Assembly: GCA_947628345.1 (NCBI GenBank) | Contig: CANQZM010000001.1 | Coordinates: forward strand, 2,534 to 66,533 | DNA: 64,000 nucleotides | Direction of reading: 5' to 3' | From: an uncultured Bacilli bacterium | Lineage (GTDB): Bacteria > Bacillota_I > Bacilli_A > RF39 > UBA660 | Shown: piece after piece, positions 45,370-63,404 of the stretch | Numbering within the stretch: position 1 is the first letter of the stretch | Layout of the letters: each line of letters opens with the position of its first letter | Notes under the pieces: model-generated | What the model was told of the DNA's origin: nothing | Seen by the model: the letters and a program-made list of their open reading frames with translations, nothing else | The model's database searches: none | Position numbers and translations under genes: made by a program

Positions 45370-45425
45370 AATGAATAAAGTATAGACACTATAAAAATAA
45401 ATTTGCATCTAAAAAAAGTAAATTA

Positions 45426-46298: not shown

Positions 46299-46372
46299 AT
46301 ATTACCACCTTAATAGTATTTTATCACAAATCACATTAAAAATAAGATTATATTAATCTTACTTTACAATTA

Positions 46373-46600: not shown

Positions 46601-46726
46601 AGATATCGTTTTGTCGATATCGACAAAATGATCTTTAATATTAATACTACTATTAATACAAGCATTTTTAGCTTTAAAATATTTAAATTTAATTTTTTCT
46701 AAGAAAAAAAGAAGATTATATTAATC

Positions 46727-47524: not shown

Positions 47525-47529
47525 ACGTA

Positions 47530-48372: not shown

Positions 48373-48459
48373 TTTGATTACAACACATAATTAAATATTT
48401 CTATCATTTTGTTTATAATTTTTATACTTATTTTTCCACCATATACCTATCATAATAAT

Positions 48460-49023: not shown

Positions 49024-49038
49024 AACTATACCTCCATT

Positions 49039-50961: not shown

Positions 50962-50984
50962 ATAAATCTCTCCTCCTAATTATT

Positions 50985-51575
50985 TTATATTTTAAAATAT
51001 TGTTTAGATTTTTCTAATGTGTATTTAGAATTAATGTCTTTTATATAACCTAACTCTACTAATTCTAAAGCTTCTTCATATCTACATTCAAAATATTTAA
51101 TAAACTCATCTTTGTCTAGATTTTGTTTTTTTACTCTTTTACAATCTAGAGCCAAATAACTATAATTATAAGCACTCATACAGCCTTGGTCCTGATAATA
51201 ACTATCTAAAAACTGCATTTTTTTTGGAACATAACCTGTTTCCTCTGTTAATTCTCTTATGGCTGCTAAAACAGGAGTCTCAGCTTGTTCAATATAACCT
51301 GCTGGAAGTTCTACTCCTACGGTTTCTTTAGTGTTAACTCGCGGTTGAACAACTAATATTGTATTATTATCTACAGTAACAGGTAAGATGATAGCTGCAC
51401 TACCATCAGTACCATTCTTTAGTAATTTTTCTCTTGGGATTACTTTTCCATTATTTAATTTATAATATTTTTTTTCAATACTTAGAAAAGTAGATTTATC
51501 AGATGAGTTTATCACTTCTACAGTTTTAAGTTCGTTAATGTAATCTCTTAACTCTTCTAATTTTTCTTTTCGCAT
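50985..51575 (-). CDS. Nudix hydrolase, ADP-ribose pyrophosphatase-like
   Basis: Nudix box LPAGYIEQAETPVLAAIRELTEETGY. Confidence 0.65.
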   Translation of the reverse strand: MRKEKLEELRDYINELKTVEVINSSDKSTFLSIEKKYYKLNNGKVIPREKLLKNGTDGSAAIILPVTVDNNTILVVQPRVNTKETVGVELPAGYIEQAETPVLAAIRELTEETGYVPKKMQFLDSYYQDQGCMSAYNYSYLALDCKRVKKQNLDKDEFIKYFECRYEEALELVELGYIKDINSKYTLEKSKQYFKI

Positions 51576-53050
51576 GGTTTTTTCACCTTTTGATATCCGC
51601 TATTTTCCATTGCAGTTGTTGCCGCATTACTCATTGCTTCAAATAACATATATTCTTTTAACTTTCTTTCTTCTTCTGATAAATCAACATAGTATTTATG
51701 AGGATTATCTATATCTGTAATTCTATCAGTTAAAGTTTCATATTCTTCTTGGCAATAAGCTTGTTTTTCTTTAATTGTTGGTTCATTATAAACTAATTTT
51801 CCATTTATAAATATAGGTACTTGTAATTCTCTTAGCATATAATCATCAATAGTTGTTTTTTTCCAAGGATCTACATCAGATACTAACGTATATTGTTTTT
51901 TTGAAATTATTTCATCATCACGGGCTATGACATCTCCTAATACTTTACCACTATCATTATCATAGAATCTATATACTTTTTTAACTCCTGGATTAGTTGT
52001 TTTTACAGTATCTCCACTAACTTTAATTTTAGGTATTTTTTCTCCATCCTTTTCTATAGCTACTAATTTATAAACTCCATTTAATCTTTCTTTAGAAGCA
52101 GATATATTATCCCCTGCTCCTATTGAATCAATCACTGCCCCTTTATTTAACATATTATTAATTGAATATTCATCTAAGCCATTAGATAGACAGATTGTAG
52201 CATCATGATAGCCTGCATCTACAAGCATTTGTTTAGCAGCTTTTGATAAATATACTAAATCACCACTATCTATTCTAACTCCTTTTAATTTATATCCTCT
52301 AGGTTCAAGATATTCACGACTTACTCTAATAGCATTAGGAATACCACTTTTTAAAGTATCATATGTATCTACCAAAAATACACAGTTATCTGGATGTGAT
52401 TTGGCATATGCTAAAAATGCTTCATATTCATAATCTGCTTCCTGAACAAAAGAATGTGCCATAGTACCAAGTACAGGAATATCGTATTTTTTACCAGCTA
52501 AAACATTACTAGTTCCTTTGCAGCCACCAATAAAAGCATTTTTACTAGCTTCTACTGCAGAATCACTTCCACGTGCTCTTCTTGCACCAAACTCCATTAC
52601 AGGAATATCTTTTGCAGCTGCAGTTACTCTTTTAGCTTTTGTTACTACTAAACCTCCATGATTAAAATTAGCAAGTAAGGCTGTTTCAATTATTTGAGCT
52701 TCTATCATATTAGCTTTTACAGTTAAAACTGGTTCATTTGGAAATGCTGCAGTACCATCTGGCATAGCATAAACATCGCCTGTAAATTTTAAATCTTTTA
52801 AATAAGTTAAAAATTCTTCACTAAAACTACCTGTTGTTCTAAGAAAGTTTATATCATCTTCTGTAAATTTAAAATTTTGTAAATATTTTATTGTCTCATC
52901 AAGTCCTCCTGTCATGGTATATCCTCCATTAAATGGATTAGTTCTGAAAAAGATATCAAAATATGCTTTTTCCTCCTTCTTTCCAGCATCAAAATATGCT
53001 TGAGCCATTGTTAATTCATAAAAATCTGTCATCATTGTTTTATTTTCCAT
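51557..53050 (-). CDS. pncB: Nicotinate phosphoribosyltransferase
   Basis: 497 aa; NAPRTase family conserved regions (GTMAHSF, phosphoribosyl-binding segment). Confidence 0.8.
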   Translation of the reverse strand: MENKTMMTDFYELTMAQAYFDAGKKEEKAYFDIFFRTNPFNGGYTMTGGLDETIKYLQNFKFTEDDINFLRTTGSFSEEFLTYLKDLKFTGDVYAMPDGTAAFPNEPVLTVKANMIEAQIIETALLANFNHGGLVVTKAKRVTAAAKDIPVMEFGARRARGSDSAVEASKNAFIGGCKGTSNVLAGKKYDIPVLGTMAHSFVQEADYEYEAFLAYAKSHPDNCVFLVDTYDTLKSGIPNAIRVSREYLEPRGYKLKGVRIDSGDLVYLSKAAKQMLVDAGYHDATICLSNGLDEYSINNMLNKGAVIDSIGAGDNISASKERLNGVYKLVAIEKDGEKIPKIKVSGDTVKTTNPGVKKVYRFYDNDSGKVLGDVIARDDEIISKKQYTLVSDVDPWKKTTIDDYMLRELQVPIFINGKLVYNEPTIKEKQAYCQEEYETLTDRITDIDNPHKYYVDLSEEERKLKEYMLFEAMSNAATTAMENSGYQKVKKPCEKKN

Positions 53051-53105
53051 AATTAATCTCTCCTTTTCTTTTTAATATTTTATTAATAACATCTTTTAAA
53101 AAAAA

Positions 53106-53690
53106 TTATCTTTTTTTAACTAACTTTATTCCTTGTTGTTCCATAAGTAAATACGCTGCATCTATATAATTTTTCCTTACATCTTCTGCATATGTTGCAA
53201 CAGCATCTTGATGAACTCTAATGTTAACATCTCTATTTACTTGATCATAGTAATTTGCAAGTCCCATTGCTCCATTAAATACGCATATATCTGTACAACA
53301 ACCTACTATATCAACATTTTTAATATTATTGGCATCCCTTACAAATTTTCTAAAAGCAGGTGCTTCCATAAAACTTGTTGAATTCTTTTCAATTAAAACT
53401 GTATTATCTAAACCCAAATATTCAGATAGTTCATCAACTACTAGTTCTTCCCCACTACCTCTAACACAATGTGGTGCTGGAAATCTTTTATGTTCAATTG
53501 AATCCTTTTCGTGTGTATCTTTAATAAATACAATTAAGTTTCCATTTTGGTGGGATTCTTTAATTAATTCAATTTGTCTAGGTATTATGTTACCTATCTT
53601 ATTATCATGTAAAACTCCTTTCTTTACAAAACCGTTAACCATATCTACAACGATTAACATTCCATTATAACATTGTAAATTCTTTATCAT
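53106..53690 (-). CDS. pncA: Nicotinamidase/isochorismatase-family cysteine hydrolase
   Basis: VVDMVNGF, K residue, catalytic Cys in CCTDICV. Confidence 0.7.
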   Translation of the reverse strand: MIKNLQCYNGMLIVVDMVNGFVKKGVLHDNKIGNIIPRQIELIKESHQNGNLIVFIKDTHEKDSIEHKRFPAPHCVRGSGEELVVDELSEYLGLDNTVLIEKNSTSFMEAPAFRKFVRDANNIKNVDIVGCCTDICVFNGAMGLANYYDQVNRDVNIRVHQDAVATYAEDVRKNYIDAAYLLMEQQGIKLVKKR

Positions 53691-54107
53691 AATATCCTCC
53701 CTTTTTGTTATTAACTATTTATTAATAACACTTTTTAAAAATTATACAAGTTTTCTCACTTGTTATTAACATTATATTAATAACAAAACAATTTGTCAAC
53801 ACTTTTTTTGAATTTTTTTTATTTTTTTTACAATAAGTAATAAAATTAATATTCTTTACTTTAAATTTATAAAATATACTATACTGAATATTAATTTTAT
53901 ATTTTTGAAAGGTGATTATATGAAATATAATATTATAGATATTATAGATAAAGATTTAACCGATAAAAAAATAGAGGAAATAATTAATAATAAATTATAT
54001 AAAATTATTGAATTTATGGAGTTAAATGCTAATATTTATGAATAATTGGTATAATGGTATCGGTTATAAATTTAACTTAAAAATTAATTATTGCCTTAAA
54101 AGTAAAG

Positions 54108-55718
54108 GTGATAATAATGAATGAAATGAAAAAGAAATTATTAAGAGTTGGTATTTATTTAAGACTATCTGATGAAGATAATGATAAACAAAATAAATTG
54201 GATAACAGTGAATCAATTAAAAATCAAAGAAATCTACTTCTAGGAGAAATAGAAAAAAGATCTGAATTTCTTCTAGTAGATGAATATTGTGATGAAGATT
54301 TATCAGGCGCAGGAACTTATAGACCAGAATTTGAACGACTTATAAGAGATTGTGAAAATGGTAAAATAGATGTAATTTTATGTAAGAGTCAATCAAGATT
54401 TTCAAGAGATATGGAAATTATAGAAAAGTATTTACATAATAAATTTATCGAATGGGGAGTAAGATTTATAAGTTTTTCTGATAATGCTGATACAGCTAAT
54501 ATTGGTAATAAAAAATCAAGACAAATTAATGGCCTAGTAAATGAATGGTATTTAGAAGATGTATCTAACAATATTCGTAGTGCTTTTAAAACCAAAATGG
54601 AACACGGAGAATTTATTTCTCCCTTTGCTTCATTTGGCTACGAGGTACCAAATTTTGATAATAATAAATTAGTAGTTGATTCTGTAGCTGCAGAAATAGT
54701 AAAAGAGATTTTCAATCTATATTTAATGGGAATGGGTTTTACAGCTATAGCAAAGTATTTAAATAATAAAAATATACCTTCTCCATCTCTATATAAATAT
54801 CAAAAAGGTATTAAATTAAATATTATTAGTAATAGACCTAGAGAAGAAATAAAATGGAGTGCAAATGCTATTAAAACAATATTAACTAATGAAGTTTATT
54901 TAGGACATTTAATCCAAGGAAAAAGAACTACTGTTAGTTATAAAAATCATAAGATTAAAAGCAAAGATAAAAGTGAATGGATAAGAATAGAAAACACGCA
55001 TGAAGCAATCATAGATGAAGATACATTTAATAAAGTTCAAATAGCTATAAAAGAAAGAACTAAACCTATAAAACAAACAGGTCTTGCTCATATTTTTTCT
55101 GGAAAAGTATTTTGTCTTGAATGTAATCAATATATGAGAAAAAAGAATTCTTCAAAACACGAATATTTACAATGCTCAAATAATCGTGATGGTTATAATG
55201 ACTGTATTAATAAACAATCAATTAGATATGATAAATTAGAAAATATAATTTTAAATGAAATCAATAAAAAAATTTGTAAATATTATAATGAAGAAAAATT
55301 AGAAGATTTAGATAAACTAAATAAAAATAATAAATTCACTGATAAAATAAAAGCCTTAAAAAAACAAAGAGAAGAAGTCAGTAATAGCATTGCAAAAATA
55401 AAAAAATATCTAAAAAAACTTTATGAAGATAAAGTAAATGGTATTATTACAGTTGAACAATTCAAAGACTTAATAAAGGATTACAATAAAGATAATGATA
55501 TTTATAAAGATAATCTTAAATCTATTGAAAGTGAAATTTCTTATTATATAAAAAAAAAAGAAAATGTAAAAAAGACTAAGAAAAAATTTAGTAAATATAA
55601 AAATCTTAATAGTTTAAATAAAGTTATTGTAGATGAATTTATTGATAAAATCTATATTGGAAAGTTAAATAAAAAATTAAATAGTAGAGATATTCAAATA
55701 AAATGGAATTTTAAATAA
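54108..55718 (+). CDS. Large serine recombinase (integrase of the NAD island)
   Basis: IYLRLSDEDN...SQSRFSRD resolvase domain, recombinase domain, Cys-rich zinc ribbon (CLECNQY...CSNNRDGYNDC), C-terminal coiled coil. Confidence 0.85.
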   Translation: MIIMNEMKKKLLRVGIYLRLSDEDNDKQNKLDNSESIKNQRNLLLGEIEKRSEFLLVDEYCDEDLSGAGTYRPEFERLIRDCENGKIDVILCKSQSRFSRDMEIIEKYLHNKFIEWGVRFISFSDNADTANIGNKKSRQINGLVNEWYLEDVSNNIRSAFKTKMEHGEFISPFASFGYEVPNFDNNKLVVDSVAAEIVKEIFNLYLMGMGFTAIAKYLNNKNIPSPSLYKYQKGIKLNIISNRPREEIKWSANAIKTILTNEVYLGHLIQGKRTTVSYKNHKIKSKDKSEWIRIENTHEAIIDEDTFNKVQIAIKERTKPIKQTGLAHIFSGKVFCLECNQYMRKKNSSKHEYLQCSNNRDGYNDCINKQSIRYDKLENIILNEINKKICKYYNEEKLEDLDKLNKNNKFTDKIKALKKQREEVSNSIAKIKKYLKKLYEDKVNGIITVEQFKDLIKDYNKDNDIYKDNLKSIESEISYYIKKKENVKKTKKKFSKYKNLNSLNKVIVDEFIDKIYIGKLNKKLNSRDIQIKWNFK

Positions 55719-55760
55719 TCTTACTCAATTAATAGTTAAGATTTGTGTCTTCATAACATT

Positions 55761-55770
55761 CAAAGAGTTG
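55761..55770. repeat. Right copy of 10-bp direct repeat CAAAGAGTTG
   Basis: See 45360..45369. Confidence 0.7.
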
Positions 55771-56102
55771 CTTTAATCAGAACTTTAGCCATCAAACCAG
55801 ATATTTTACTTTTAGATGAACCTATGTCTGCTCTAGATTATCAATCCCGTCTTGCTATTAGTGATGATATTTATAAAATTATTAAAAATGAAGGTAAAAC
55901 CGCTATTATGGTAACTCATGATATTGCAGAGGCTATTAGTATGTCAGATAGGGTCATTGTTTTAACAAAGCGACCATCTAAAGTAAAAAGTATATATGAA
56001 ATTAATCTAACAGATAAATCAACTCCTATAAATAATAGAAAATGTAAAGAATTTTCTACTTACTATGATACTATTTGGAGGGATTTAGATGTCCACATTT
56101 AG
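55771..56102 (+). pseudogene. 3' part of the interrupted ABC ATP-binding protein (Walker B ILLLDEP, D-loop SALD, H-loop)
   Basis: ALIRTLAIKPDILLLDEPMSALD...VTHDI; in frame with 44952..45369 once the island is removed. Confidence 0.8.
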
Positions 56103-56880
56103 TGAAGAACATAAAAAGTATTTAAAAAGACAGCGTCGAGAAAAAATCATTATCTTTATCTTTAGATTATTAATAATTGTGACCTTTTTAATAGGTTGGG
56201 AGTTACTATCTAGATATCATATTATTAATACTTTCTTATCTTCTAGTCCTACTAATGCTATAAAAACCACTATTGATTTATTTAAAGATGGTAGTTTATT
56301 TAAACACATTGGAATTACTTTATATGAGGTATTAATTAGTTTTGGAATTGCTTCTATTTTTGGTCTTATAATTGCAACCATTTTATGGAGTAATAAAATT
56401 TTATCAAAAATAATAGATCCATATTTAACAATATTAAATTCTTTACCAAAAGTTGCTTTAGGTCCTTTAATAATTATATGGGTTGGAGCTAGTATTAACT
56501 CTATAATATTTATGGCTTTATTAATTAATACTTTTATTACAATTATTAATATTTATAATGGGTTTATTTCTACTAATAAAAATTATATTACTTTATTAAA
56601 ATCATTAAAGGCCACCAAAAGACAAATCTTTTTTAAAGTAGTCTTACCAAGTAATTATGTTACTGTTATAAATGCTTTAAAAATAAATATCTCTATGAGT
56701 TTAATTGGTGTTATTATGGGAGAACTATTAGTATCTAAAAATGGATTAGGATACCTGATAATGTATGGTTCTCAAGTATTTAATATTGATCTTGTTATTA
56801 CTTCTGTTGTTATATTAGGTATTATTTCTTATTTAATGTATTTTATAATTGATAAAATTGAACAACATATAAGAAGATAA
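56089..56880 (+). CDS. ABC transporter permease (SsuC/TauC-like)
   Basis: Six TM helices; EAA-like loop region; overlaps ATPase stop. Confidence 0.75.
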   Translation: MSTFSEEHKKYLKRQRREKIIIFIFRLLIIVTFLIGWELLSRYHIINTFLSSSPTNAIKTTIDLFKDGSLFKHIGITLYEVLISFGIASIFGLIIATILWSNKILSKIIDPYLTILNSLPKVALGPLIIIWVGASINSIIFMALLINTFITIINIYNGFISTNKNYITLLKSLKATKRQIFFKVVLPSNYVTVINALKINISMSLIGVIMGELLVSKNGLGYLIMYGSQVFNIDLVITSVVILGIISYLMYFIIDKIEQHIRR

Positions 56881-56884
56881 AGTT

Positions 56885-56920
56885 AAAAGTTGGTTAAAAT
56901 GAAACCAACTTTTAATTTTT
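56885..56920. terminator. Bidirectional rho-independent terminator hairpin AAAAGTTGGTT-loop-AACCAACTTTT with flanking T/A runs
   Basis: Read directly between convergent genes. Confidence 0.55.
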
Positions 56921-56944
56921 ATTACTTTTTGATTTACTACAAAA

Positions 56945-57808
56945 CTATTTTTTATTTTCCAATTTTTCTTTTTTCTCTAAATATTGATAGTTAAGATTAT
57001 TTTGATTACTAATTACTGTTTTACCAAGTTTTTGCTCTAAATTATCTCTTGCCACTTTAGAAACATTACCTCCCATTTTAGCAATAACTTTATTTTGTTC
57101 TAAACCATAAGGCTTATGCTCCTTAGCAAGTTCACGAGTAGCAATTTCTCCTAAATCAGTAAGAACAATTTCTATATCAGACATGTTATCTCTTAATGAT
57201 TCTTTTCTTATACCTTTATATGATTTATATTCACCTGTTTTCATACCCGACCATTCTTTATATATCTCATTAGTTAGAATTCCATATTCATAATCTTTTG
57301 AAACACCTCCCTCTTTCCATATATCAGTTAATTTATTTCTGTCTAATATACCTTTTAATCTAGCTTCAATCCATTTATCAGAATATCCCCTTTTCCGGTA
57401 ATAATTAATTGCTCTTTTAATAGCAATTTCAGGATCAAATACCTCATCGATTCTTTCACTACCTAAATTTGCAAGCCAAAGTTTAAAAGGCTCAGCTTTA
57501 GGCGAAGGAACAGATTCTATAAGTCTTAATATTCCTTTAGTATCTAATGTGTCAGTAGAATAACTTTTTCCATCTTTTTTAGATTTCATTTTCAGTTGTA
57601 CACATTTTGTGGACAACTCACTCTGTTCTTCTTCAGTCATTCTTTTCTTTAACATATTCCAATAATTTCTTGGATTGTTACTTTCAGTTAAATCACTTAT
57701 TACATCTACTACGCTAAAATAATATTCTTCTTTTTCACTATCCCAAACACTTCTGATTTCTTTACCATCAAATAGATTTGAGATTGTTTCTAATTTGTTT
57801 TGATTCAT
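56945..57808 (-). CDS. Bro-N domain / DinD-like protein, paralog 2
   Basis: About 55% identical by eye to 60268..61125; N-terminal Bro-N-like (IRSVWDSEKEEYYFSVVDVISDLT); start MNQNKLET at 57808 with RBS AGGAGG (ORF track starts 57859). Confidence 0.65.
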   Translation of the reverse strand: MNQNKLETISNLFDGKEIRSVWDSEKEEYYFSVVDVISDLTESNNPRNYWNMLKKRMTEEEQSELSTKCVQLKMKSKKDGKSYSTDTLDTKGILRLIESVPSPKAEPFKLWLANLGSERIDEVFDPEIAIKRAINYYRKRGYSDKWIEARLKGILDRNKLTDIWKEGGVSKDYEYGILTNEIYKEWSGMKTGEYKSYKGIRKESLRDNMSDIEIVLTDLGEIATRELAKEHKPYGLEQNKVIAKMGGNVSKVARDNLEQKLGKTVISNQNNLNYQYLEKKEKLENKK

Positions 57809-57842
57809 ATAAATCCTCCTTAATAATGGCATTATATAATAA

Positions 57843-57854
57843 GAACATTTGTTT
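57843..57854. promoter_or_regulatory. GAACATTTGTTT (GAAC-N4-GTTT, clostridial LexA/Cheo-box-like) overlapping a TTGACA -35 upstream of Bro-N paralog 2
   Basis: Motif read directly; identical 70-bp promoter region duplicated at 61148-61212. Confidence 0.45.
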
Positions 57855-57977
57855 GACAATATATTCTTTAAATTATTTTAAATTTAATACAAAAAAGCAA
57901 ACATAAATAGTCTGCTTATAAAAATTTTTTTCTAAAAATATCTATTCCTATATTCTTTAGTATACTATAAACTTCTT

Positions 57978-59024
57978 TTAGAATGGTAATTTTCCTTCAT
58001 ATACATATATCCAAGAATAATTATCGCTAATTTGGCATAATTCATTATCTAGTTTAACCTTAATTAATTTATCTTTAATTTGATCAAATTGTTTCTTTGA
58101 TATTGTTTTTTCGATTATCTTATCATCTCTAATCTCTAAAATTCCCATACCAGCCCAAAAATCAACCATAGATGAGGAGTTAGAAGCTAAATGTAACCAT
58201 AGTTCTCCACCTGCTCCTAAACCGAATGAGCCAAGTAAAGGAATCAAATTATCTTGCTCGAAATACTCTTTTCCTCTTAATTCGTAGTCGATATCCAAAA
58301 ACGCTTCATTAAGAGTTCTTGAATTATATATATATTTACTTCTTTCTTCATCAGATATATTAGTTAAATCTTCTTTACCATTCCACATAATATTGGTTTC
58401 AGCTCTCTTTAATCTAATTTCTTTTTCTTCATCAGATAAGGTATTAAATCTTTCTTGAACTTCAGGTAAATAATCATACATTTTTGTTAATAATTCTTCT
58501 CTATCATAAAAATCTCTAGCCAAAACAACGCTTAAATCTATAGGATATTTTGTTTTATTATTTACAAAATCGATTAATTGTTTAAACACTTTATTATATT
58601 TATCCATACCTTCTTGTGGTGTATTATTCATGTAAGTTAATGCTACTTCTTCTGATTCAAACTCTATTTGAGTTCTTTTTTCTTGAGATTCAGCAATTGG
58701 CAAAACATATTCCATTAAATATTTTATAGTAAATATTTCCGCCCAATCAGGTTCAGGATATGTTGGAGACCAAAAATGCTTGTATCCTCCAAAACAAAAG
58801 CAAAATAAGAAATTTAGGTTGTTGTTTAATATAATATCTACTTTTTCTTCAGTATACTTCTTTGCATCTTCATATTGTGCTTTCCTAGACCATTTTCTTG
58901 AAAATAATCTATTAAGTATTTTATCTTTAATATCTTTGCCTTCAAGTTTATTTGTTTGAATGTTATTAAAGTTTAGTAATTCGTTATTAACAAATTCATT
59001 TACTTTTATATCTAATTCATTCAT
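57978..59024 (-). CDS. Hypothetical protein (348 aa)
   Basis: ORF with RBS AGGGAG; no recognised domain. Confidence 0.45.
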   Translation of the reverse strand: MNELDIKVNEFVNNELLNFNNIQTNKLEGKDIKDKILNRLFSRKWSRKAQYEDAKKYTEEKVDIILNNNLNFLFCFCFGGYKHFWSPTYPEPDWAEIFTIKYLMEYVLPIAESQEKRTQIEFESEEVALTYMNNTPQEGMDKYNKVFKQLIDFVNNKTKYPIDLSVVLARDFYDREELLTKMYDYLPEVQERFNTLSDEEKEIRLKRAETNIMWNGKEDLTNISDEERSKYIYNSRTLNEAFLDIDYELRGKEYFEQDNLIPLLGSFGLGAGGELWLHLASNSSSMVDFWAGMGILEIRDDKIIEKTISKKQFDQIKDKLIKVKLDNELCQISDNYSWIYVYEGKLPF

Positions 59025-59145
59025 TGTATCAACTCCCTTAATTAATTATATCATTAATCTCATAATCTTAATACCAGTGGCAGAAATAAATACTTTATTT
59101 TACTAAATATCTTTTTAATATTTAAAGCAATTTACTGGTTTAACT

Positions 59146-59268
59146 CAAATTTATTGTATTCTTCATCACTTACAGGTTTTAACCAAAAATTCCCTGTATC
59201 TTAACCAGGACTTCTACTGCAATATGACTAAACCAAAAGTCTTTTCTTACTCCATGCTAATGTTTTAT
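59146..59268 (-). repeat. Cupin-gene 3'-end remnant, copy 1 (most degenerate, about 123 bp)
   Basis: Alignable by eye to 62654..62775; overlaps the last codons of the inositol monophosphatase gene. Confidence 0.6.
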
Positions 59269-60042
59269 ATACTTTTCCACTTTTTGTAATATTTTTGAAT
59301 GTGATATTCCATTTGTAATAATAGCTCCTTTTATATCACTATCATATCGCTGTTGTTCACCATATATATTTGTCACTTTACCACCTGCTTCTGTAACAAT
59401 AAGATAAGATGCCGCTAAATCGCAATTACCATGACTAGTTCCTGGAAATATATCACATGAAAAATCTCCTGTTGCAATAGCCATACAACTTCTTGCAACA
59501 CTTCCAATGGATGAAATCGTTGAAGAAGATTTTAATTCCTTTAGTAGAGATACCTCATCGATTATATCGTTATTAAATATTTCAATATTAGTTCTATACC
59601 CTAAATCACCTAAGCTTTTATCATTTACGTGAATTCTAACATTATTGCAATAAGCACCCTCTCCTTTTATTGCAGAGTACATTTTATCTTCATTTGCATT
59701 ATATACTACTCCAACAATAGGCTCACCATTATGAACTAAAGCTAAGGAAAATACAAATACTGGAATATGATTAACATACATACCTGTTCCATCTAAGGGA
59801 TCACATACCCATACATACTCTGAATCTTTTTTATAACTCTCTTCTTCACCATTGACTGAATGATCCTTATATTTTTCTTTTACTTTTTCAATTAGGTAAC
59901 TATTTATTTTCTTATCTACAAGTGTAACAACAGTTTTATCTTCTTTATAGTTTAAATCCATATTATCATTATAATATTCCAACATTATTTTTCCTGCACA
60001 TAAGGCAATTTCTTTAGCAAACTCTAAATACTCATTAAGCAT
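59257..60042 (-). CDS. Inositol monophosphatase family protein
   Basis: WVCDPLDGT motif and metal-binding residues. Confidence 0.75.
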   Translation of the reverse strand: MLNEYLEFAKEIALCAGKIMLEYYNDNMDLNYKEDKTVVTLVDKKINSYLIEKVKEKYKDHSVNGEEESYKKDSEYVWVCDPLDGTGMYVNHIPVFVFSLALVHNGEPIVGVVYNANEDKMYSAIKGEGAYCNNVRIHVNDKSLGDLGYRTNIEIFNNDIIDEVSLLKELKSSSTISSIGSVARSCMAIATGDFSCDIFPGTSHGNCDLAASYLIVTEAGGKVTNIYGEQQRYDSDIKGAIITNGISHSKILQKVEKYIKH

Positions 60043-60060
60043 ATTACTCTCCTCCTATAA

Positions 60061-60255
60061 CTTATCATATTCTTCATCACTTACTGGTTCTAACCAAACA
60101 TTCTCTATATCTTCACCAGGTATTTCTACTGCAATATGGCTAAACCAAAAATTTTTCTTGCTCCATGAAAATGTTTCTCATTTGCAGGTATTACTACAAC
60201 ATCTCCTGGAGATAGTTTTTGTACATATTTTCTTTCCTCCTGATAGGAGGCTAAT
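60061..60255 (-). repeat. Cupin-gene 3'-end remnant, copy 2 (about 195 bp)
   Basis: Alignable to 62654..62850 including ...CCTGGAGATAGTTTTTGTACAT... Confidence 0.6.
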
Positions 60256-60267
60256 ATTTTAGCAAAT

Positions 60268-61125
60268 CTATTTTTTATTTTCTATTTTTTCTTTTTCATC
60301 TATATATTGATAGTTTAATTTGTTTTGATTGGTAATAACTGATTCTCCAAGTAGACTTTCAATTTCATCTCTTGTGTTTTTAGCAACTTGTCCACCTGCA
60401 TGAGCAACTTTTATATTTTCTTTTAATCCTTTAGGTTTCGTTTTCTTTGCTAGTCTCTTTGTTACTTCTTCACTTATATCAGTTAGAGATACTTCTATAT
60501 TATCCATGTTATCTCGAAGGGCCTCTTTACGAAGACCTTTGTACTCCTTATATTGTTTTGCAGTCATTCCAGACCAAGTTTTATATATTTCATTTGTTAA
60601 AATTGCAAATTCTTTACTTTCAGTAATGCCATTTTCTTTCCATACATCAGTAAGTTCTTTTCTATCTTGAATACTTTGCATTCTTTTAGTAATCCATTTT
60701 TCTTCATAACCTTTGGCTCTATATAAATCAATTGCCCTTTGTGCTGCGATTGATGGATCAAATATTTCATCAATTCTTTCACTACCTAATTTCGCTAACC
60801 ATTGTTTTATAGGTTCTGCATTTTTACTCGGAATAGATTCAATTATTCTAAACATATTTTCAATATCAACTACATCAGTTAAACGATATTTGCCATCCTG
60901 AGCTTTAAGTTTCAACTGGTCACAATTTGTGACCGTTTCATTTCCCTCATCTTTTAGTCGACCTTTTAATACATTCCAGTAGTGTCTAGGATTTTTACTA
61001 TCAGTTAGAACTCTTACAATATCAACTACACTAATATAATATTTTTCTTCTTTCTTATCCCACACGGTTCTAATTTTTTCATTATTAAATACTTTGTTGA
61101 TTAAATGCATTTTATCTTGATTCAT
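60268..61125 (-). CDS. Bro-N domain / DinD-like protein, paralog 1
   Basis: N-terminal Bro-N-like (IRTVWDKKEEKYYISVVDIVRVLT); C-terminal half similar to the DinD C-terminus (AHAGGQVAKNTRDEIE); RBS AGGAGG. Confidence 0.65.
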   Translation of the reverse strand: MNQDKMHLINKVFNNEKIRTVWDKKEEKYYISVVDIVRVLTDSKNPRHYWNVLKGRLKDEGNETVTNCDQLKLKAQDGKYRLTDVVDIENMFRIIESIPSKNAEPIKQWLAKLGSERIDEIFDPSIAAQRAIDLYRAKGYEEKWITKRMQSIQDRKELTDVWKENGITESKEFAILTNEIYKTWSGMTAKQYKEYKGLRKEALRDNMDNIEVSLTDISEEVTKRLAKKTKPKGLKENIKVAHAGGQVAKNTRDEIESLLGESVITNQNKLNYQYIDEKEKIENKK

Positions 61126-61159
61126 TCAAAACCTCCTTGATAAAAATATTATATAATAA

Positions 61160-61171
61160 GAACATTTGTTT
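61160..61171. promoter_or_regulatory. GAACATTTGTTT LexA-box-like motif overlapping TTGACA -35 upstream of Bro-N paralog 1
   Basis: Identical to the site at 57843. Confidence 0.45.
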
Positions 61172-61258
61172 GACAATATATTCTTTAAATTATTTTAAAT
61201 TTAATACAAAAAAGCAAACTACATAAATAATTTGTTTGTAAATTTTTAAATTTTTTCT

Positions 61259-61455
61259 GATCTAATTTATTATATTCTTCATCTGTAACTGGTTCTAACC
61301 ACTCGTTTGAAGTTTCTACACCTGGTACTTTTTCGGCAATATGACTAAACCAAAAATTGAGTACCATACCAATGTTTAACATTTGAAGAAATTATTACAA
61401 TATCACCTAGAGATAATTTTTGTACTGGCTTTCCGTTTTCTTGATAGGATGGTAT
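61259..61455 (-). pseudogene. Cupin-gene 3'-end remnant, copy 3 (about 197 bp; stop mutated, spurious 65-aa ORF 61185..61382)
   Basis: Encodes ...NFWFSHIAEKVPGVETSNEWLEPVTDEEYNKLD, matching the C-terminus of the 62654..63076 cupin. Confidence 0.65.
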
Positions 61456-61465
61456 TTTATCAAAT

Positions 61466-62413
61466 TTATTTTGAAACTAAGAAGTTCATTACTAAATCAA
61501 TTAGGATATCTTTTTCTTTAGGGTTAGATTGTGCAATGAGTAACGTAATTGCAACAAGTGTATTGTTATCAATAATTTGTCCTTTTTCACTATACAAAAT
61601 ATTATAGAATTTTAAGAAATATATAAATAACGTGGCTGCTATTCTTTTGTTTCCATCAATAAAAATATGATTCTTAGTTATTAAATATAAGAAATTAGCT
61701 GCTTTTTCTTGAATAGTAGGATACAAGTCTTTTCCATCAAAAGATTGATAGATATCACCTATTATAGATTTTAAACCTTCATTTCTTTCAAGAGCAAATA
61801 AATCACTATCATTTCCAAATTTGAGTTGACTAACTATATTCTTACAATCTTCATAGGTGATTTTTTTATTATTTTTAGTTCCATTTGGTTTAGATATTTT
61901 TTTATGATCATAATCGTCAAGTAAATTTAAAGCATTTGAGTAATTATTTATTACTTTAATTATTTCTTGAGCTTCTGTTCCTTTTAATTCAGTATCTATT
62001 CTACCTGCAATATCTATTAACTTAATCGTTTTTTCAAGATATTCTAATCTTTTCTGATTAACAGCATAACCATTAATCATATAATCTTTTAATACGTTAT
62101 TTGCCCATTTTCTAAAAATAACACCGTTTTTAGATTTTACACGATAACCAACACTTATAATCATATCAAGGTTATAGTAATCAATATTTCTTTTAACATT
62201 TCTATTACCTTCTTTTTGAACTGTCGCAAATTTTGCGACACTTGAATCATCTAATTCTTCTTTTAAAGCATTATTAATATGTTTACCAATTGTTTTTATA
62301 TCTCTATCATATAATTTTGCTAATTGTTCTCTATTAAGCCATACAGTTTCATCTTTCATATTGACTTCCAATTTAACATTTTGATTTTCAAATAATATAA
62401 TTTCATTTTTCAT
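61466..62413 (-). CDS. RhuM-family N-terminal domain plus Fic/Doc-type C-terminal domain protein
   Basis: N-terminus typical of RhuM (ETVWLNREQLAKLYDRDIKTIGKHI, YYNLDMIISVGYRV); C-terminal Doc-type motif HIFIDGNKR. Confidence 0.65.
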   Translation of the reverse strand: MKNEIILFENQNVKLEVNMKDETVWLNREQLAKLYDRDIKTIGKHINNALKEELDDSSVAKFATVQKEGNRNVKRNIDYYNLDMIISVGYRVKSKNGVIFRKWANNVLKDYMINGYAVNQKRLEYLEKTIKLIDIAGRIDTELKGTEAQEIIKVINNYSNALNLLDDYDHKKISKPNGTKNNKKITYEDCKNIVSQLKFGNDSDLFALERNEGLKSIIGDIYQSFDGKDLYPTIQEKAANFLYLITKNHIFIDGNKRIAATLFIYFLKFYNILYSEKGQIIDNNTLVAITLLIAQSNPKEKDILIDLVMNFLVSK

Positions 62414-62555
62414 TTTTATTGTTTCCTTTCTTTTGATTTATCATATTTATTAACTGGTTTTGTCATTTGTCAAATATTCTTCTCTTACTATGTAAAATTT
62501 TAAATATGTTATGACATTATCACCAGAATATAAATTAGTTATTATTTTAATATAA

Positions 62556-62567
62556 AAACATTTGTTC
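62556..62567. promoter_or_regulatory. AAACATTTGTTC (reverse complement GAACAAATGTTT) LexA-box-like motif upstream of the RhuM/Fic-Doc gene
   Basis: Motif read directly. Confidence 0.35.
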
Positions 62568-62653
62568 GTCAATGCTTTTTCGTTATTTTAAAATATTTTA
62601 TTAGACGCAAGAAAAAACAAACCATGTAACTGGTCTGTTTTTCAGTTTCCTAA

Positions 62654-63076
62654 TTAATCTAATTTATTATATTCTTCATCTGTAACTGATTCTAACCAAA
62701 CATTCTCCGTTTCTTCACCTGGTACTTCTACTGCAATATGACTAAACCAAGAGTCTTTTCTTGCTCCATGCCAATGTTTAACATTTGCAGGAATTACTAC
62801 AATATCTCCTGGAGATAGTTTTTGTACATCTTTCCCTTCTTCCTGATAATATCCGAATCCAGCTGTGCAAATTAATACTTGTCCTCCACCAGATTTGGCT
62901 TTATGAATATGCCAATTATTTCTACAAGAGGGTTCAAAAGTTACGTTGGCAAAACTAATTCCGTTATATGTTTTAGCTAACATATTAATATAGCTTTGTC
63001 CACTAAAATATTCAGCAAAAGCATCATTTGGTTGTCCTAATCCAAAGACATTTAATTTATCAAATTCTTGCCTTTT
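62654..63076 (-). CDS. Cupin domain protein (intact copy; source of the repeated 3' fragments)
   Basis: Cupin motifs HIHKAKSGGGQVLICTAG and GDIVVIPANVKHWHGA. Confidence 0.7.
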   Translation of the reverse strand, partial: KRQEFDKLNVFGLGQPNDAFAEYFSGQSYINMLAKTYNGISFANVTFEPSCRNNWHIHKAKSGGGQVLICTAGFGYYQEEGKDVQKLSPGDIVVIPANVKHWHGARKDSWFSHIAVEVPGEETENVWLESVTDEEYNKLD

Positions 63077-63404
63077 CATTGTTATCTTCACTCCCATAAA
63101 CTTCTTCTATTAAAGGAAAGGTACTCCAAGCCTTAGGCCATCCAGAGTAAAATGCAAGTTGCGTTACTACTTCAACAACTTCTTCTTTTGTAAGTCCATG
63201 TTCTTTTCCGATTGCAAGATGGCTTTTTAATTGTGGAAATAATCCTTGTGCAAATAATGCTGATATAGTAATTAAACTTCTGTCCCTTGCTGATAATTTA
63301 TCTTCTCTTGACCATACCTCCCCAAATAATACATCATCATTTAACTCTGCAAATTTAGGTGCAATATTACCTAACCTATCTCTACCTGCTGTTTGTTTTT
63401 TCAT
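63060..63404 (-). CDS. Carboxymuconolactone decarboxylase (AhpD-like) family protein
   Basis: CMD-family pattern SARDRSLITISALFAQG...HLAIGKEHGLTKEE. Confidence 0.65.
   Translation of the reverse strand: MKKQTAGRDRLGNIAPKFAELNDDVLFGEVWSREDKLSARDRSLITISALFAQGLFPQLKSHLAIGKEHGLTKEEVVEVVTQLAFYSGWPKAWSTFPLIEEVYGSEDNNEKARI

What the first reader, a model, noticed from the sequence alone, without database searches (positions are those of the whole stretch)
59146..62860. Array of four direct repeats of a cupin gene 3' end, each heading a different single-gene cassette
The last 120-200 bp of the cupin gene (62654..) recur at 61259..61455, 60061..60255 and 59146..59268. Copies become shorter and more diverged with distance.

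Each copy immediately precedes, on the minus strand, a different gene: RhuM/Fic-Doc, Bro-N/DinD-like, inositol monophosphatase, and a hypothetical gene followed by a second Bro-N paralog.

This is the footprint expected from repeated site-specific integration into the 3' end of the cupin gene, with each event regenerating the 3' end and displacing the previous one. It could also be a cassette-shuffling hotspot. No integrase remains in the array.
Basis: seen in the sequence. Interest (0 to 1): 0.6.

Follow-up and report, generated by a model that had tools for sequence, protein, structure and literature searches.

The report
Stacked gene insertions behind a cupin gene
Behind a conserved cupin gene of an uncultured rabbit-gut bacterium, five single genes (three of them candidate phage-defence genes) have piled up. 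Each is headed by a leftover copy of the cupin gene's tail, and this looks like ordinary recombination scarring at a gene-swapping hotspot rather than the work of a dedicated integrase.

Summary
The last ~195 nt of the cupin gene (62654-63079, minus strand) recur at 61257-61446, 60055-60245 and 59144-59269 (nhmmer E 1e-28 to 1e-50). I found a fifth ~25-nt remnant at 57933-57957. Contigs from other samples tile the array at 98-100% identity, so it is not an assembly artefact.

Each copy heads one gene:
- RhuM-Fic/Doc (PADLOC candidate PDC-S23)
- Bro-N/DinD-like (PDC-S13)
- inositol monophosphatase (IMPase)
- an IsnA/PvcA-fold protein
- a second Bro-N gene

Three units also repeat a terminator plus a strong promoter carrying a GAAC-N4-GTTY (LexA-box-like) dyad.

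Related rabbit-gut Bacilli MAGs show an empty site, single-gene versions and other contents at this position. It is therefore a genuine variable hotspot.

The integrase model is only partly supported. Displaced cupin pieces start at five or more different positions across genomes. Only one junction type is shared. No recombinase lies in the array or in the related loci examined. The nearby large serine recombinase belongs to a separate element inserted in an ABC ATPase gene.

The best reading is homologous recombination anchored in the cupin gene, with illegitimate right-hand joins. Existing duplicates were then reused as homology arms. Moderate interest; a new member of a known kind.

The parts
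63060..63404 (-). CMD (carboxymuconolactone decarboxylase family) gene. Conserved left-flank partner of the cupin gene.
   Evidence: Pfam PF02627, E 1e-19. The CMD-cupin pair is conserved in most related loci.
62654..63079 (-). Intact cupin gene (141 aa). Its last 195 nt (62654-62848, from codon Tyr68) is the repeated segment.
   Evidence: Pfam Cupin_2. The exact protein occurs in other assemblies only with the start at 63079. More than 8000 homologues, 89% identity to the closest relatives.
62543..62642 (-). Terminator hairpin (~62613-62640), then a sigma70-type promoter (-35 at 62572, -10 ending at 62544) with the dyad GAAC-AAAT-GTTT (62556-62567) in its spacer. Drives RhuM-Fic.
   Evidence: Promoter scan 10/12, dyad search. 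The block is conserved after the cupin gene in L007, L011, L013, L014 and L133.
61466..62413 (-). Unit 1 gene: RhuM N-terminal domain plus Fic/Doc domain. Matches phage-defence candidate PDC-S23.
   Evidence: Pfam PF13310 and PF02661. PADLOC PDC-S23, E 1e-122. The ORF alone is 90-98% nt identical to L133 while its flanks are 65-80%.
61447..61465 (-). Junction J1, first copy: shared 3' UTR ATTTGATAAAATACCATCC between the RhuM-Fic stop and cupin fragment 2.
   Evidence: Alignment of junctions. The same UTR and join occur after Bro-N1 (60246-60267), in L009, and degenerate in L004.
61257..61446 (-). Cupin fragment 2 (codons 68-141). Has a 5-nt deletion, and the stop codon is replaced by CAG.
   Evidence: nhmmer E 2e-47. 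81% identical to the intact copy. Frameshift shown.
61148..61240 (-). Terminator-like hairpin plus promoter (61176..61148) with the dyad AAAC-AAAT-GTTC (61160-61171). Drives Bro-N1.
   Evidence: Promoter 11/12, dyad, alignment A2.
60268..61125 (-). Unit 2 gene: Bro-N domain with a DinD-like C-terminal region. Matches phage-defence candidate PDC-S13.
   Evidence: Pfam Bro-N. NCBIfam DinD, partial match. PADLOC PDC-S13, E 7e-114. phrog_15286.
60246..60267 (-). Junction J1, second copy: ATTTGCTAAAATATTAGCCTCC.
   Evidence: The CCTCC together with the cupin TATCAGGAGG forms a palindrome, which scores as a plus-strand terminator at 60236-60250.
60055..60245 (-). Cupin fragment 3 (codons 68-140). 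Has a 1-nt deletion and ends in TAG, 12 nt before the IMPase start codon, with a GGAGG ribosome-binding site between.
   Evidence: nhmmer E 4e-50. Fragment 3 plus IMPase are colinear (87% nt) with the intact cupin-IMPase operon of L005. The same coupling occurs in L067.
59257..60042 (-). Unit 3 gene: inositol monophosphatase family. Its stop codon lies in cupin-derived sequence (AAACATTAG).
   Evidence: Pfam PF00459, E 7e-47. Junction read from the sequence.
59144..59269 (-). Cupin fragment 4 (from about codon 89). Carries an in-frame stop and a 1-nt deletion.
   Evidence: nhmmer E 1e-28, translation.
57978..59024 (-). Unit 4 gene: conserved 348-aa protein with an isonitrile synthase (IsnA/PvcA) fold.
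   Evidence: AlphaFold pLDDT 86.8, pTM 0.88. Foldseek hits PIsnA 9dh4 and PvcA 3e59 at TM 0.6-0.69, probability 1.0. Homologues sit in other contexts elsewhere, and homology to the window is limited to the ORF.
57933..57957 (-). Fifth cupin remnant (last ~25 nt of the gene).
   Evidence: The L013 alignment starts 25 nt inside its cupin gene. Alignment A2.
57831..57917 (-). Terminator (57895-57917) plus promoter (57859..57831) with the dyad AAAC-AAAT-GTTC (57843-57854). Drives Bro-N2.
   Evidence: 80% identical over 255 nt to the Bro-N1 upstream region (repeat family D2).
56945..57808 (-). Unit 5 gene: second Bro-N/DinD-like paralogue (PDC-S13).
   Evidence: Pfam Bro-N, E 4e-11. PADLOC PDC-S13, E 3e-113.
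56089..56919 (+). Right flank: convergent ABC permease gene and a shared bidirectional terminator (56879-56919).
   Evidence: Pfam BPD_transp_1, terminator scan. In L006 this gene lies 90 bp from the cupin stop, which is the empty site.

Best explanation
**What it is.** The position just downstream of the conserved CMD-cupin operon is a long-lived gene-swapping hotspot in a clade of AT-rich uncultured Bacilli from the rabbit gut. Alternative occupants exist in different lineages: a Bro-N/DinD-like gene or a RhuM-Fic gene behind a terminator and a LexA-box-like promoter, or an IMPase gene translationally coupled to the cupin gene.

**How the array arose (inferred).** In this genome five such 'cupin-tail plus downstream gene' segments have been stacked. 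DNA from a relative carrying 'cupin-X' recombines with the resident locus. The left crossover is ordinary homologous recombination in CMD-cupin.

The right end is resolved in one of two ways:
1. By an illegitimate, microhomology-type join into the resident cupin 3' region. This leaves the resident tail as a displaced fragment with a new, idiosyncratic boundary. Examples are frag4, the fifth remnant, L098 and L133.
2. By homologous pairing of the donor's displaced fragment with the recipient's intact cupin tail, once a duplication already exists in the gene pool. This inserts the unit and propagates the same junction J1 (UTR plus CCTCC joined to codon 68). Examples are frag2, frag3, L009 and L004.

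New units enter next to the cupin gene. Older tails move outward and decay by frameshifts, stops and deletions. No dedicated recombinase is needed.

**Function (inferred).** The three Bro-N and RhuM-Fic genes are candidate anti-phage genes. Each has its own strong promoter with a GAAC-N4-GTTY dyad, so they are probably derepressed by DNA damage.
For: **Shown directly.**
- Five cupin tails of decreasing length, each heading one gene.
- The array is confirmed by independent contigs.
- Relatives show an empty site in L006, single units in L004, L005, L013, L032 and L067, and stacked units with displaced tails in L009 and L133.
- Fragment 3 plus IMPase are colinear with a native cupin-IMPase operon, including the ribosome-binding-site spacing.
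- There are at least five different right-junction positions in the cupin gene, plus one junction inside a Bro-N gene in L013.
- Short shared strings sit at the L098 and L133 joins.
- J1 shares non-cupin UTR sequence across RhuM-Fic and Bro-N units and across species. RhuM-Fic in L009 and L012 retains a TAA-TAG double stop, i.e. a Bro-N-type stop and UTR.
- Recent exchange is visible. The strain behind L098 is 99.8% identical up to the RhuM-Fic stop and only 82% identical after it.
- Between the window and L133, only the RhuM-Fic ORF is 90-98% identical, while the flanks are 65-80%.
- In L009 the two copies are 98.8% identical over 160 nt and diverge only in the last 35 nt, as expected for recombination or gene conversion between repeats.
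- No recombinase is present in the array or in the neighbouring ORFs tested.
- Tail fragments are pseudogenes. Third-codon-position differences make up 0.40-0.52 of their differences, against 0.60-0.78 for functional orthologues.
Against: - The mechanism is inferred from scars. No recombination intermediate has been observed.
- Two junctions in the window, plus those of L009 and L004, fall at exactly the same cupin nucleotide with a conserved element-side sequence. That is also what an att site would look like.
- In L013 and L133 the donor-side breakpoint falls right at the end of the same 17-nt UTR. This hints at a defined unit end, although microhomology can explain L133.
- Each cupin fragment is closest to its own genome's cupin gene rather than to the cupin genes that natively precede the same cargo. 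Import from other lineages is therefore not demonstrated by phylogeny.
- Only 64 kb of the genome was visible, so a trans-acting integrase may exist elsewhere.
- It is unknown whether this organism is naturally transformable.
Confidence: 0.55

Rival explanations
1. Site-specific accretion. Small integrase-less cassettes carry an attP that mimics the cupin 3' end from codon 68. A recombinase encoded elsewhere integrates them in trans. Each event regenerates the gene and displaces the older tail, as with tRNA-targeting islands, tycheposon arrays or CIME accretion.
For: - The same join (UTR plus CCTCC to TATCAGG at codon 68) occurs twice in the window, in L009, and degenerate in L004, for two different cargo genes.
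- The intact gene is always regenerated.
- Unit ends coincide with the 17-22-nt UTR in several genomes.
- Phage integration into a homologous cupin gene exists in another lineage: L088, where a cupin piece covering aa 52-140 abuts a lysis module.
- Analogous arrays of partial target-gene repeats are documented for tycheposons (bioRxiv 10.1101/2020.12.28.424599).
Against: - Three of the five boundaries in this array, and the boundaries in L098 and L133, lie at other cupin positions.
- No integrase lies in the array, in the ORFs tested in the rest of the window, or next to the cupin gene in 14 related loci.
- J1 has no conserved dyad symmetry.
- Relatives have cupin-IMPase and cupin-RhuM-Fic without any duplication.
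- No phage, plasmid or viral contig carries a cupin tail next to these cargo genes.
Confidence: 0.22
2. In-situ origin. A unit [cupin tail-terminator-promoter-Bro-N-UTR] was tandemly duplicated within this lineage by unequal crossing-over or replication slippage. Individual ORFs were later replaced, and older units were eroded by deletions.
For: - Each fragment is most similar to its own genome's intact cupin tail: 81-86% in the window and 93% in L009.
- All three long fragments share TTT where all functional cupin genes have a Ser codon.
- The Bro-N1 and Bro-N2 upstream regions are 80% identical over 255 nt.
- RhuM-Fic sits in a Bro-N framework.
Against: - Fragment 3 is directly coupled to IMPase exactly as in native cupin-IMPase operons of other species. 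Duplication of a Bro-N unit does not predict this.
- Bro-N1 and Bro-N2 are only ~53-55% identical as proteins, and each has closer orthologues in other species.
- J1 is shared across species.
- The shared C-to-T change could be parallel decay in an AT-rich genome.
Confidence: 0.15
3. The neighbouring large serine recombinase element delivered or shuffles the cassettes.
For: A recombinase 73% identical, in an element with a Mob_Pre relaxase, is inserted at the same ABC ATPase position in other genomes. It carries a RhuM-Fic gene (87% identical) and a Bro-N fragment as terminal cargo (L137-L141).
Against: - In the window that element has clean ends (CAAAGAGTTG at 45360-45369 and 55761-55770) in the ATPase gene, 1.2 kb away from the array and separated from it by the permease gene.
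- The cupin junctions show no similarity to that core.
- Serine-recombinase integration does not create 25-190-nt duplications.
Confidence: 0.05
4. Assembly artefact: alternative alleles of the locus from co-existing strains were chained through the shared cupin tail.
For: - The window comes from a metagenome-type lineage.
- Short-read contigs tend to break at the repeats (L001 ends at the RhuM-Fic stop; L049 ends inside the cupin gene).
Against: - The copies are only 67-89% identical, so they would not collapse or chain in a de Bruijn graph.
- The junctions contain unique non-cupin sequence.
- Contigs from several other samples span every junction at 98-100% identity.
Confidence: 0.02

Closest known systems
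Arrays of integrative elements at one target gene with partial target repeats: tRNA/tmRNA islands, tycheposons in Prochlorococcus, accretion of cis-mobilizable elements (CIMEs) at fda in Streptococcus thermophilus, composite SCC elements at rlmH
   Same: - Successive insertions occur at the 3' end of one gene, and the gene is regenerated each time.
- Older partial copies are pushed outward and decay.
- Some units lack an integrase.
- Cargo includes defence and adaptive genes.

The tycheposon description was read. The other examples rest on my own knowledge.
   Different: - The repeats here are 25-195-nt diverged gene fragments with several different start points, not a constant att core.
- No integrase or integrase remnant occurs anywhere in the array or in the related loci.
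- The units are single genes of 0.9-1.4 kb.
Homology-facilitated illegitimate recombination and homologous allele replacement at core-gene-flanked hotspots (defence hotspots exchanged through conserved flanks)
   Same: - A conserved flank (CMD-cupin) serves as the homologous anchor.
- Right-hand junctions are variable and carry short shared strings.
- Relatives show an empty site and alternative occupants.
- The cargo is enriched in candidate defence genes (PDC-S13, PDC-S23).
   Different: - Insertions here stack rather than replace one another.
- One junction (J1) has been propagated across species and cargo types.
- The right flank is not conserved in most relatives.
Integron cassette arrays
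   Same: - A tandem array of single-gene units at one chromosomal site, each bounded by a repeated element.
- An SOS link is possible. In integrons the integrase promoter is LexA-controlled (my own knowledge). Here the cassette promoters carry a LexA-box-like dyad.
   Different: - There is no IntI, attI or attC hairpin sites.
- The repeat is a fragment of a neighbouring gene.
- Most units bring their own promoter.
Orphan module arrays downstream of rhs/cdiA toxin genes
   Same: Displaced pieces of the main gene's 3' region, each followed by a different small gene, accumulate downstream. They are thought to arise and exchange by homologous recombination (my own knowledge).
   Different: - In rhs/cdiA loci the displaced piece encodes the variable toxin tip and the following gene is its immunity partner.
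- Here the cupin tail is the conserved part and shows no sign of a functional link with the genes behind it.

Membership tests
Site-specific integrative element array (CIME / tycheposon / island type) | A tyrosine or serine recombinase gene (or its remnant) in at least some units or adjacent to the target | tested here: not met
   Pfam scans of all array genes, 30 further window ORFs and 18 neighbour ORFs in relatives found recombinases only in two unrelated elements at 33568-35271 and 54108-55718. The rest of the genome was not visible.
Site-specific integrative element array (CIME / tycheposon / island type) | The same att core at every unit boundary | tested here: not met
   Boundaries fall at cupin codons 68 (twice), ~89 and ~134 in the window, ~117 in L133, and the last 9 nt in L098. 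Only the J1 junction recurs.
Site-specific integrative element array (CIME / tycheposon / island type) | The target gene's 3' end is regenerated and the old one displaced | tested here: met
   An intact 141-aa cupin gene plus four displaced pseudogenised tails.
Site-specific integrative element array (CIME / tycheposon / island type) | Excised circular forms or precise empty sites | not testable with these tools
   Needs reads or PCR. The empty site in L006 belongs to a different species.
Integron | IntI integrase with attI next to the array | tested here: not met
   The flanks are CMD-cupin and an ABC permease. No integrase was found.
Integron | attC-type imperfect inverted repeats at cassette ends | tested here: not met
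   The repeated element is a direct repeat of coding sequence. The inverted-repeat search shows only weak AT-rich pairs.
Recombination hotspot filled by homologous plus illegitimate recombination | A conserved anchor gene with variable content, and an empty site in relatives | tested here: met
   14 related loci show an empty site or Bro-N, RhuM-Fic, IMPase, HTH, WYL and other genes directly after the cupin gene.
Recombination hotspot filled by homologous plus illegitimate recombination | Variable illegitimate joints with microhomology | tested here: inconclusive
   Joints are variable (met). Microhomology is suggested at L098 (AATAA(A)TT) and L133 (ATAyTAGAG), but it was read by eye in AT-rich sequence.
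Recombination hotspot filled by homologous plus illegitimate recombination | Tracts of recent exchange bounded by drops in identity | tested here: met
   L098 is 99.8% identical, then 82% past the RhuM-Fic stop. Against L133, the RhuM-Fic ORF is 90-98% identical and the flanks 65-80%.
Phage-defence island / hotspot | Genes belonging to validated defence systems | tested here: inconclusive
   RhuM-Fic matches PDC-S23 and both Bro-N genes match PDC-S13. These are PADLOC candidate families, not validated systems. The IMPase and the IsnA-like protein have no defence match.
SOS (LexA) regulon promoter | A CGAAC-N4-GTTCG-type dyad overlapping the promoter | tested here: met
   GAACAAATGTTT / AAACAAATGTTC lie in the spacer of the three best promoters. 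The dyad is conserved in relatives and is a perfect CGAACAAACGTTC in L133. The consensus is quoted from my own knowledge.
SOS (LexA) regulon promoter | LexA encoded in the genome, and induction by DNA damage | not testable with these tools
   The genome outside the window is not available, and there are no expression data.

The most novel reading that the evidence does not exclude
The ~0.3-kb module (cupin tail, terminator and LexA-type promoter), bounded by the conserved UTR junction, works as an integrase-free cassette platform. It would be at once a portable homology arm and a damage-inducible expression signal. RecA alone could then stack, swap and delete single defence genes at one chromosomal site. 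That would make it a functional analogue of an integron built from homologous recombination, perhaps itself boosted during the SOS response.
Probability: 0.2. Interest if true: 0.65.

Novelty: new member of a known kind. Interest (0 to 1): 0.4.

Why it matters
**What it shows.** In a barely studied, uncultured gut lineage, single candidate defence genes (Bro-N/DinD-like PDC-S13 and RhuM-Fic PDC-S23) are collected and exchanged at one chromosomal address. The scars record the order of arrival.

**Experimental leads.**
- It offers a concrete pair of candidate defence genes under a probable SOS operator for experimental testing.
- It is a natural test case for whether gene stacking next to a core gene needs an integrase at all.

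**Caution for annotators.** Displaced 3'-end repeats are usually read as att sites of integrative elements. Here most of them do not behave like one.

Tried and rejected
- **Exact cupin protein from the first ATG (147 aa).** Not on record. The real start is 63079.
- **Mosaic test of the intact cupin gene** (5' part versus 3' part against 14 relatives). No clear break at codon 68. L009 and L012 are somewhat closer in the 3' part, but within noise for 195 nt.
- **Codon-position analysis of the fragments.** It gives intermediate values, which cannot separate import from other lineages from in-situ decay.
- **Nearest-neighbour identities of the fragments.** Each is closest to its own genome's cupin gene, so co-import with the cargo could not be shown.
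- **Metagenome scan for the J1 18-mer.** 33 hits, all unrelated chance matches with no cupin, Bro-N or RhuM nearby.
- **Viral-contig scans with Bro-N1 and RhuM-Fic.** No relatives.
- **Viral-contig scan with the cupin protein.** Only flanking or unrelated hits, apart from L088 in another lineage.
- **Plasmid and phage BLAST of the whole array.** Only the conserved RhuM N-domain matched. No vehicle carries a cupin tail.
- **Rfam and tRNA scans.** Nothing found.
- **Xer/dif-type (pdif-module-like) mobilisation.** Considered by eye and rejected. J1 has no conserved dyad-symmetric 28-31-bp site, and the palindrome in frag3 is not conserved in frag2, L009 or L133.
- **Integron.** Rejected (see the membership test).
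- **Contexts of the 348-aa protein elsewhere.** It is not next to cupin genes, so this did not help with the mechanism.

Full report
**1.

The cupin gene lies on the minus strand. Its real start is 63079 and its stop is at 62654 (141 aa). The exact protein was found in other assemblies only with this start.

Its last ~195 nt, from codon Tyr68 (TATCAGGAAGAAGG...), recur three times further down the minus strand: at 61257-61446, 60055-60245 and 59144-59269.
- The repeat finder reports them as one four-member family.
- MAFFT aligns them over their whole length.
- A profile built from cupin tails finds exactly these four places in the 64-kb window, with E-values of 4e-59, 2e-47, 4e-50 and 1e-28.

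The copies are pseudogenes. Fragment 2 has a 5-nt deletion and has lost the stop codon. Fragment 3 has a 1-nt deletion. Fragment 4 has an in-frame stop and a 1-nt deletion.

It consists of the last ~25 nt of the cupin gene, placed immediately before the terminator and promoter of the second Bro-N gene. It shows up because the homology between this region and L013 starts 25 nt inside the L013 cupin gene, and in alignment A2.

The copies get shorter with distance (195, 190, 190, 125, 25 nt). They do not get steadily more diverged: identity to the intact gene is 81%, 86% and 85%.

The array is not an assembly artefact. Contigs from other ENA samples cover 63354..61466 (L001, 100%), 61667..59714 (L097, 100%) and 60391..56904 (L096, 98%). 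L142 spans Bro-N1, IMPase and the 348-aa gene.

**2. Anatomy, read along the minus strand**

| Position | Feature |
|---|---|
| 63060-63404 | CMD gene |
| 62654-63079 | Intact cupin gene |
| ~62613-62640 | Terminator hairpin |
| 62572..62544 | Promoter with a GAAC-AAAT-GTTT dyad |
| 61466-62413 | RhuM plus Fic/Doc gene |
| 61447-61465 | 19-nt UTR |
| 61257-61446 | Fragment 2 |
| ~61208-61238 | Terminator-like hairpin |
| 61176..61148 | Promoter with an AAAC-AAAT-GTTC dyad |
| 60268-61125 | Bro-N/DinD-like gene |
| 60246-60267 | 22-nt UTR |
| 60055-60245 | Fragment 3; its TAG stop lies 12 nt before the next start codon, with a GGAGG site between |
| 59257-60042 | IMPase; its stop codon lies in cupin-derived sequence |
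| 59144-59269 | Fragment 4 |
| 57978-59024 | 348-aa gene |
| 57933-57957 | Fifth remnant |
| 57895-57917 | Terminator |
| 57859..57831 | Promoter with the same dyad |
| 56945-57808 | Second Bro-N gene |
| 56879-56919 | Bidirectional terminator |
| 56089-56880 (plus strand) | Convergent ABC permease |

The three promoters are the three best minus-strand sigma70 matches in the region, at 11/12, 11/12 and 10/12. They account for three of the eight RAAC-N4-GTTY sites in the whole window.

PADLOC places RhuM-Fic in candidate family PDC-S23 (E 1e-122). It places both Bro-N proteins in PDC-S13 (E ~1e-114).

The 348-aa protein has no Pfam hit. It folds with good confidence (pLDDT 86.8) into the isonitrile synthase IsnA/PvcA fold, with TM 0.6-0.69 to 9dh4 and 3e59.

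**3. Related genomes show a hotspot**

The closest cupin genes (76-89% identity) are all in 'uncultured Bacilli' MAGs from rabbit gut. Directly after the cupin gene these genomes carry the following.

| Locus | Content after the cupin gene |
|---|---|
| L006 | Nothing: 90 bp to the convergent ABC permease (an empty site) |
| L004 | A Bro-N1 orthologue, then a ~45-nt degenerate cupin remnant, then the permease |
| L005 | IMPase, coupled as in fragment 3, then an inverted Bro-N gene |
| L007 | A different Bro-N/DinD-like gene |
| L009 | RhuM-Fic, then a cupin piece covering aa 68-141, coupled to a GNAT gene |
| L012 | RhuM-Fic after a 580-bp spacer |
| L013 | A Bro-N2 orthologue followed by a fragment of a Bro-N gene's 5' end |
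| L011 | A truncated Bro-N1 |
| L133 | RhuM-Fic, then the last ~50 nt of the cupin gene, then an old RhuM-Fic from codon 52 |
| L008, L014, L015, L016 | Unrelated genes (an HTH protein, a WG-repeat plus a WYL protein, and others) |

More distant relatives (cupin 66-68% identical) again have cupin-RhuM-Fic (L032), cupin-IMPase (L067) or a decayed RhuM-Fic (L079), without duplications.

The terminator plus dyad-promoter block after the cupin gene is conserved across many of these loci. The dyad is a perfect CGAACAAACGTTC in L133.

**4. Boundaries: the test of the integrase model**

Fragments 2 and 3 begin at the same cupin nucleotide (TATCA, codon 68). Both are preceded by a related non-cupin sequence that starts right after the stop codon of the preceding gene:
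- ATTTGATAAAATACCATCC after RhuM-Fic
- ATTTGCTAAAATATTAGCCTCC after Bro-N1

The same junction, which I call J1, follows RhuM-Fic in L009 (ATTTGACAAAAATACTAGCCTCC|TATCAAG). It also follows Bro-N1 in L004 in degenerate form. In L009 and L012 the RhuM-Fic stop TAA is followed by TAG and this UTR. RhuM-Fic therefore sits in a framework that looks derived from a Bro-N unit.

All other boundaries differ:
- Fragment 4 starts about 60 nt further in, and the IMPase stop codon is made of cupin sequence.
- The fifth remnant keeps only ~25 nt.
- L133 keeps ~50 nt, joined directly to the 17-nt UTR.
- L098 joins the RhuM-Fic stop to the last 9 nt of the cupin gene. L098 is a strain 99.8% identical to the window up to the RhuM-Fic stop and only 82% identical after it.
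- L013 has a join into a Bro-N gene instead of the cupin gene.

Short shared strings at the L098 and L133 joins suggest microhomology. In AT-rich DNA this is weak evidence.

There is thus no single core shared by all copies.

**5. No recombinase is attached**

None of the array genes is a recombinase. Pfam scans of 30 further ORFs of the window found two large serine recombinases and no tyrosine recombinase.

Both serine recombinases belong to separate insertions in the neighbouring ABC transporter operon:
- The ATPase gene is split at 45360-45369 and 55761-55770 (repeat CAAAGAGTTG, inside the ABC signature motif) by a 10.4-kb element ending in the recombinase at 54108-55718.
- The substrate-binding-protein gene is split by a ~21-kb insertion (23243-44542) carrying the recombinase at 33568-35271.

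No recombinase appeared among the ORFs I tested downstream of the cupin gene in 14 related loci.

There is one link worth noting. In other genomes, a recombinase 73% identical to the one at 54108-55718 sits in a mobilisable element (Mob_Pre relaxase) inserted at the same ATPase position. That element carries a RhuM-Fic gene (87% identical) and a Bro-N fragment as terminal cargo (L137-L141). This shows how such genes can travel between lineages. It does not explain the cupin-tail repeats.

**6. Signs of ongoing homologous exchange**

- Between the window and L133, only the RhuM-Fic ORF (about 62440..61470) is 90-98% identical at the nucleotide level. CMD, the cupin gene and the intergenic DNA are 65-80% identical.
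- Against L009 and L012, the RhuM-Fic gene is a mosaic. A divergent patch lies at about 62340..62220, inside otherwise 86-95% identical sequence.
- In L009 the intact tail and the displaced piece differ at 2 of the first 160 positions but at 15 of the last 37. This is the pattern expected from recombination or gene conversion between the repeats up to the point where the two alleles' downstream sequences differ.
- RhuM-Fic proteins at 83-87% identity occur in a very large number of gut genomes, so the gene is highly mobile.

**7. Most likely mechanism**

*Shown:* the site is variable. Units are 'cupin tail plus downstream gene' segments. The intact gene is always preserved. Junction positions vary except for J1. 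Recent recombination tracts exist.

*Inferred:* new segments enter by homologous recombination anchored in CMD-cupin. The right end is resolved in one of two ways. Either an illegitimate join into the resident cupin tail creates a new scar, or the donor's displaced fragment pairs with the recipient's intact tail, which copies J1 along. Older tails drift outward and erode.

I put this at about 0.55. The rivals are:
It is kept alive mainly by the exact recurrence of J1 and by the fact that only 64 kb of the genome is visible.
- In-situ tandem duplication with later ORF replacement: about 0.15.
- Action of the neighbouring serine recombinase: about 0.05.
- Assembly artefact: about 0.02.

**8. Function of the cargo (inferred)**

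Three of the five genes are candidate anti-phage genes. Each has its own strong promoter, whose spacer holds a GAAC-N4-GTTY dyad resembling the Gram-positive LexA (Cheo) box. The consensus is quoted from my own knowledge. E. coli dinD, to which the Bro-N proteins show partial similarity, is itself LexA-regulated, also from my own knowledge. Damage-inducible expression is therefore plausible but untested.

In L014 the same promoter position holds a different perfect palindrome (GCACGAAAAAATCGTGC). This fits an operator site.

The IMPase and the IsnA-like protein are metabolic passengers.

**9. Comparison with known systems, and verdict**

The footprint works like the arrays left by integrative elements at tRNA or protein-gene 3' ends. 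However, the locus fails two defining tests for membership: there is no recombinase and no constant core. It is not an integron.

It fits best with core-gene-anchored recombination hotspots that collect defence genes. Two features are unusual: the occupants are stacked, and one junction is propagated across species and cargo types.

I rate it a new member of a known kind, with interest 0.4. The most novel reading not excluded is an integrase-free, RecA-driven, SOS-linked cassette platform. I give that probability ~0.2.

Noticed in passing
window 45370-55760 (ends at 45360-45369 and 55761-55770): A 10.4-kb element is inserted in the ABC transporter ATPase gene, with the repeat CAAAGAGTTG inside the ABC signature motif. 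It ends in a large serine recombinase (54108-55718). It carries a near-complete NAD salvage and synthesis set: nicotinamidase-like isochorismatase, NAPRTase, NadD-like, NadE, NAD kinase and an NrtR-like Nudix regulator. It also carries a cation efflux gene. Elements with a recombinase 73% identical occupy the same ATPase position in other genomes and carry RhuM-Fic plus a Bro-N fragment instead (L137-L141).
   Followed up: partly
window 23243-44542: A second insertion of ~21 kb splits the substrate-binding-protein gene of the same ABC operon. Residues 9-211 lie at 22634-23242 and residues 200-336 at 44543-44953. It carries a large serine recombinase (33568-35271), a reverse transcriptase (40500-41567) next to a bAvd-like gene (41896-42480), a DUF2201 metallopeptidase/VWA protein, an MMPL transporter and a hybrid histidine kinase. 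The reverse transcriptase and bAvd pairing suggests a diversity-generating retroelement.
   Followed up: partly
window 57978-59024: The 'hypothetical' 348-aa protein has no Pfam hit, but it is a well-conserved family (62-87% identity in many MAGs) with a confident IsnA/PvcA isonitrile synthase fold. Some homologues are fused to a short-chain dehydrogenase, or sit next to DAP-epimerase-like and SDR genes (L091, L092). Here it is an isolated copy whose homology to the others stops at the ORF ends.
   Followed up: partly
window ~62220-62340 (RhuM-Fic residues ~25-65): A short patch of the RhuM N-terminal region is only 41-60% identical at the nucleotide level to L009 and L012, while the rest of the gene is 86-95% identical. 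The same patch is 93-98% identical to L133. This looks like a swapped or diversifying segment inside a candidate defence gene.
   Followed up: no
L014 ~8470-8500 (promoter position after the cupin gene): At the promoter position where other loci have the GAAC-N4-GTTY dyad, L014 has a different perfect palindrome, GCACGAAAAAATCGTGC. This suggests an operator that has switched to another repressor.
   Followed up: no
L088 8001-8267 (IMGVR_UViG_3300045988_005156): In a higher-GC Clostridia-type viral contig, a cupin homologue truncated at about residue 51 (71% identical over residues 52-140) directly follows a phage lysis module at the contig end. A prophage therefore seems to be integrated inside a cupin gene of this family in another lineage, at a different position from J1.
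   Followed up: partly
window 60236-60250: The junction before fragment 3 forms the perfect palindrome CCTCCTGATAGGAGG, built from junction CCTCC plus cupin TATCAGGAGG. It scores as a plus-strand terminator. It is not conserved at the other J1 junctions.
   Followed up: partly
L013 3716-3810; L011 4822-5142; L139 5941-6198: Bro-N genes are often left as fragments next to newer occupants. L013 has a 5' fragment right after a full Bro-N2-like gene. L011 has a copy truncated at residue 99. In L139, residues 98-163 are fused behind RhuM-Fic as an 82-aa ORF. RhuM-Fic repeatedly appears to displace Bro-N genes.
   Followed up: partly
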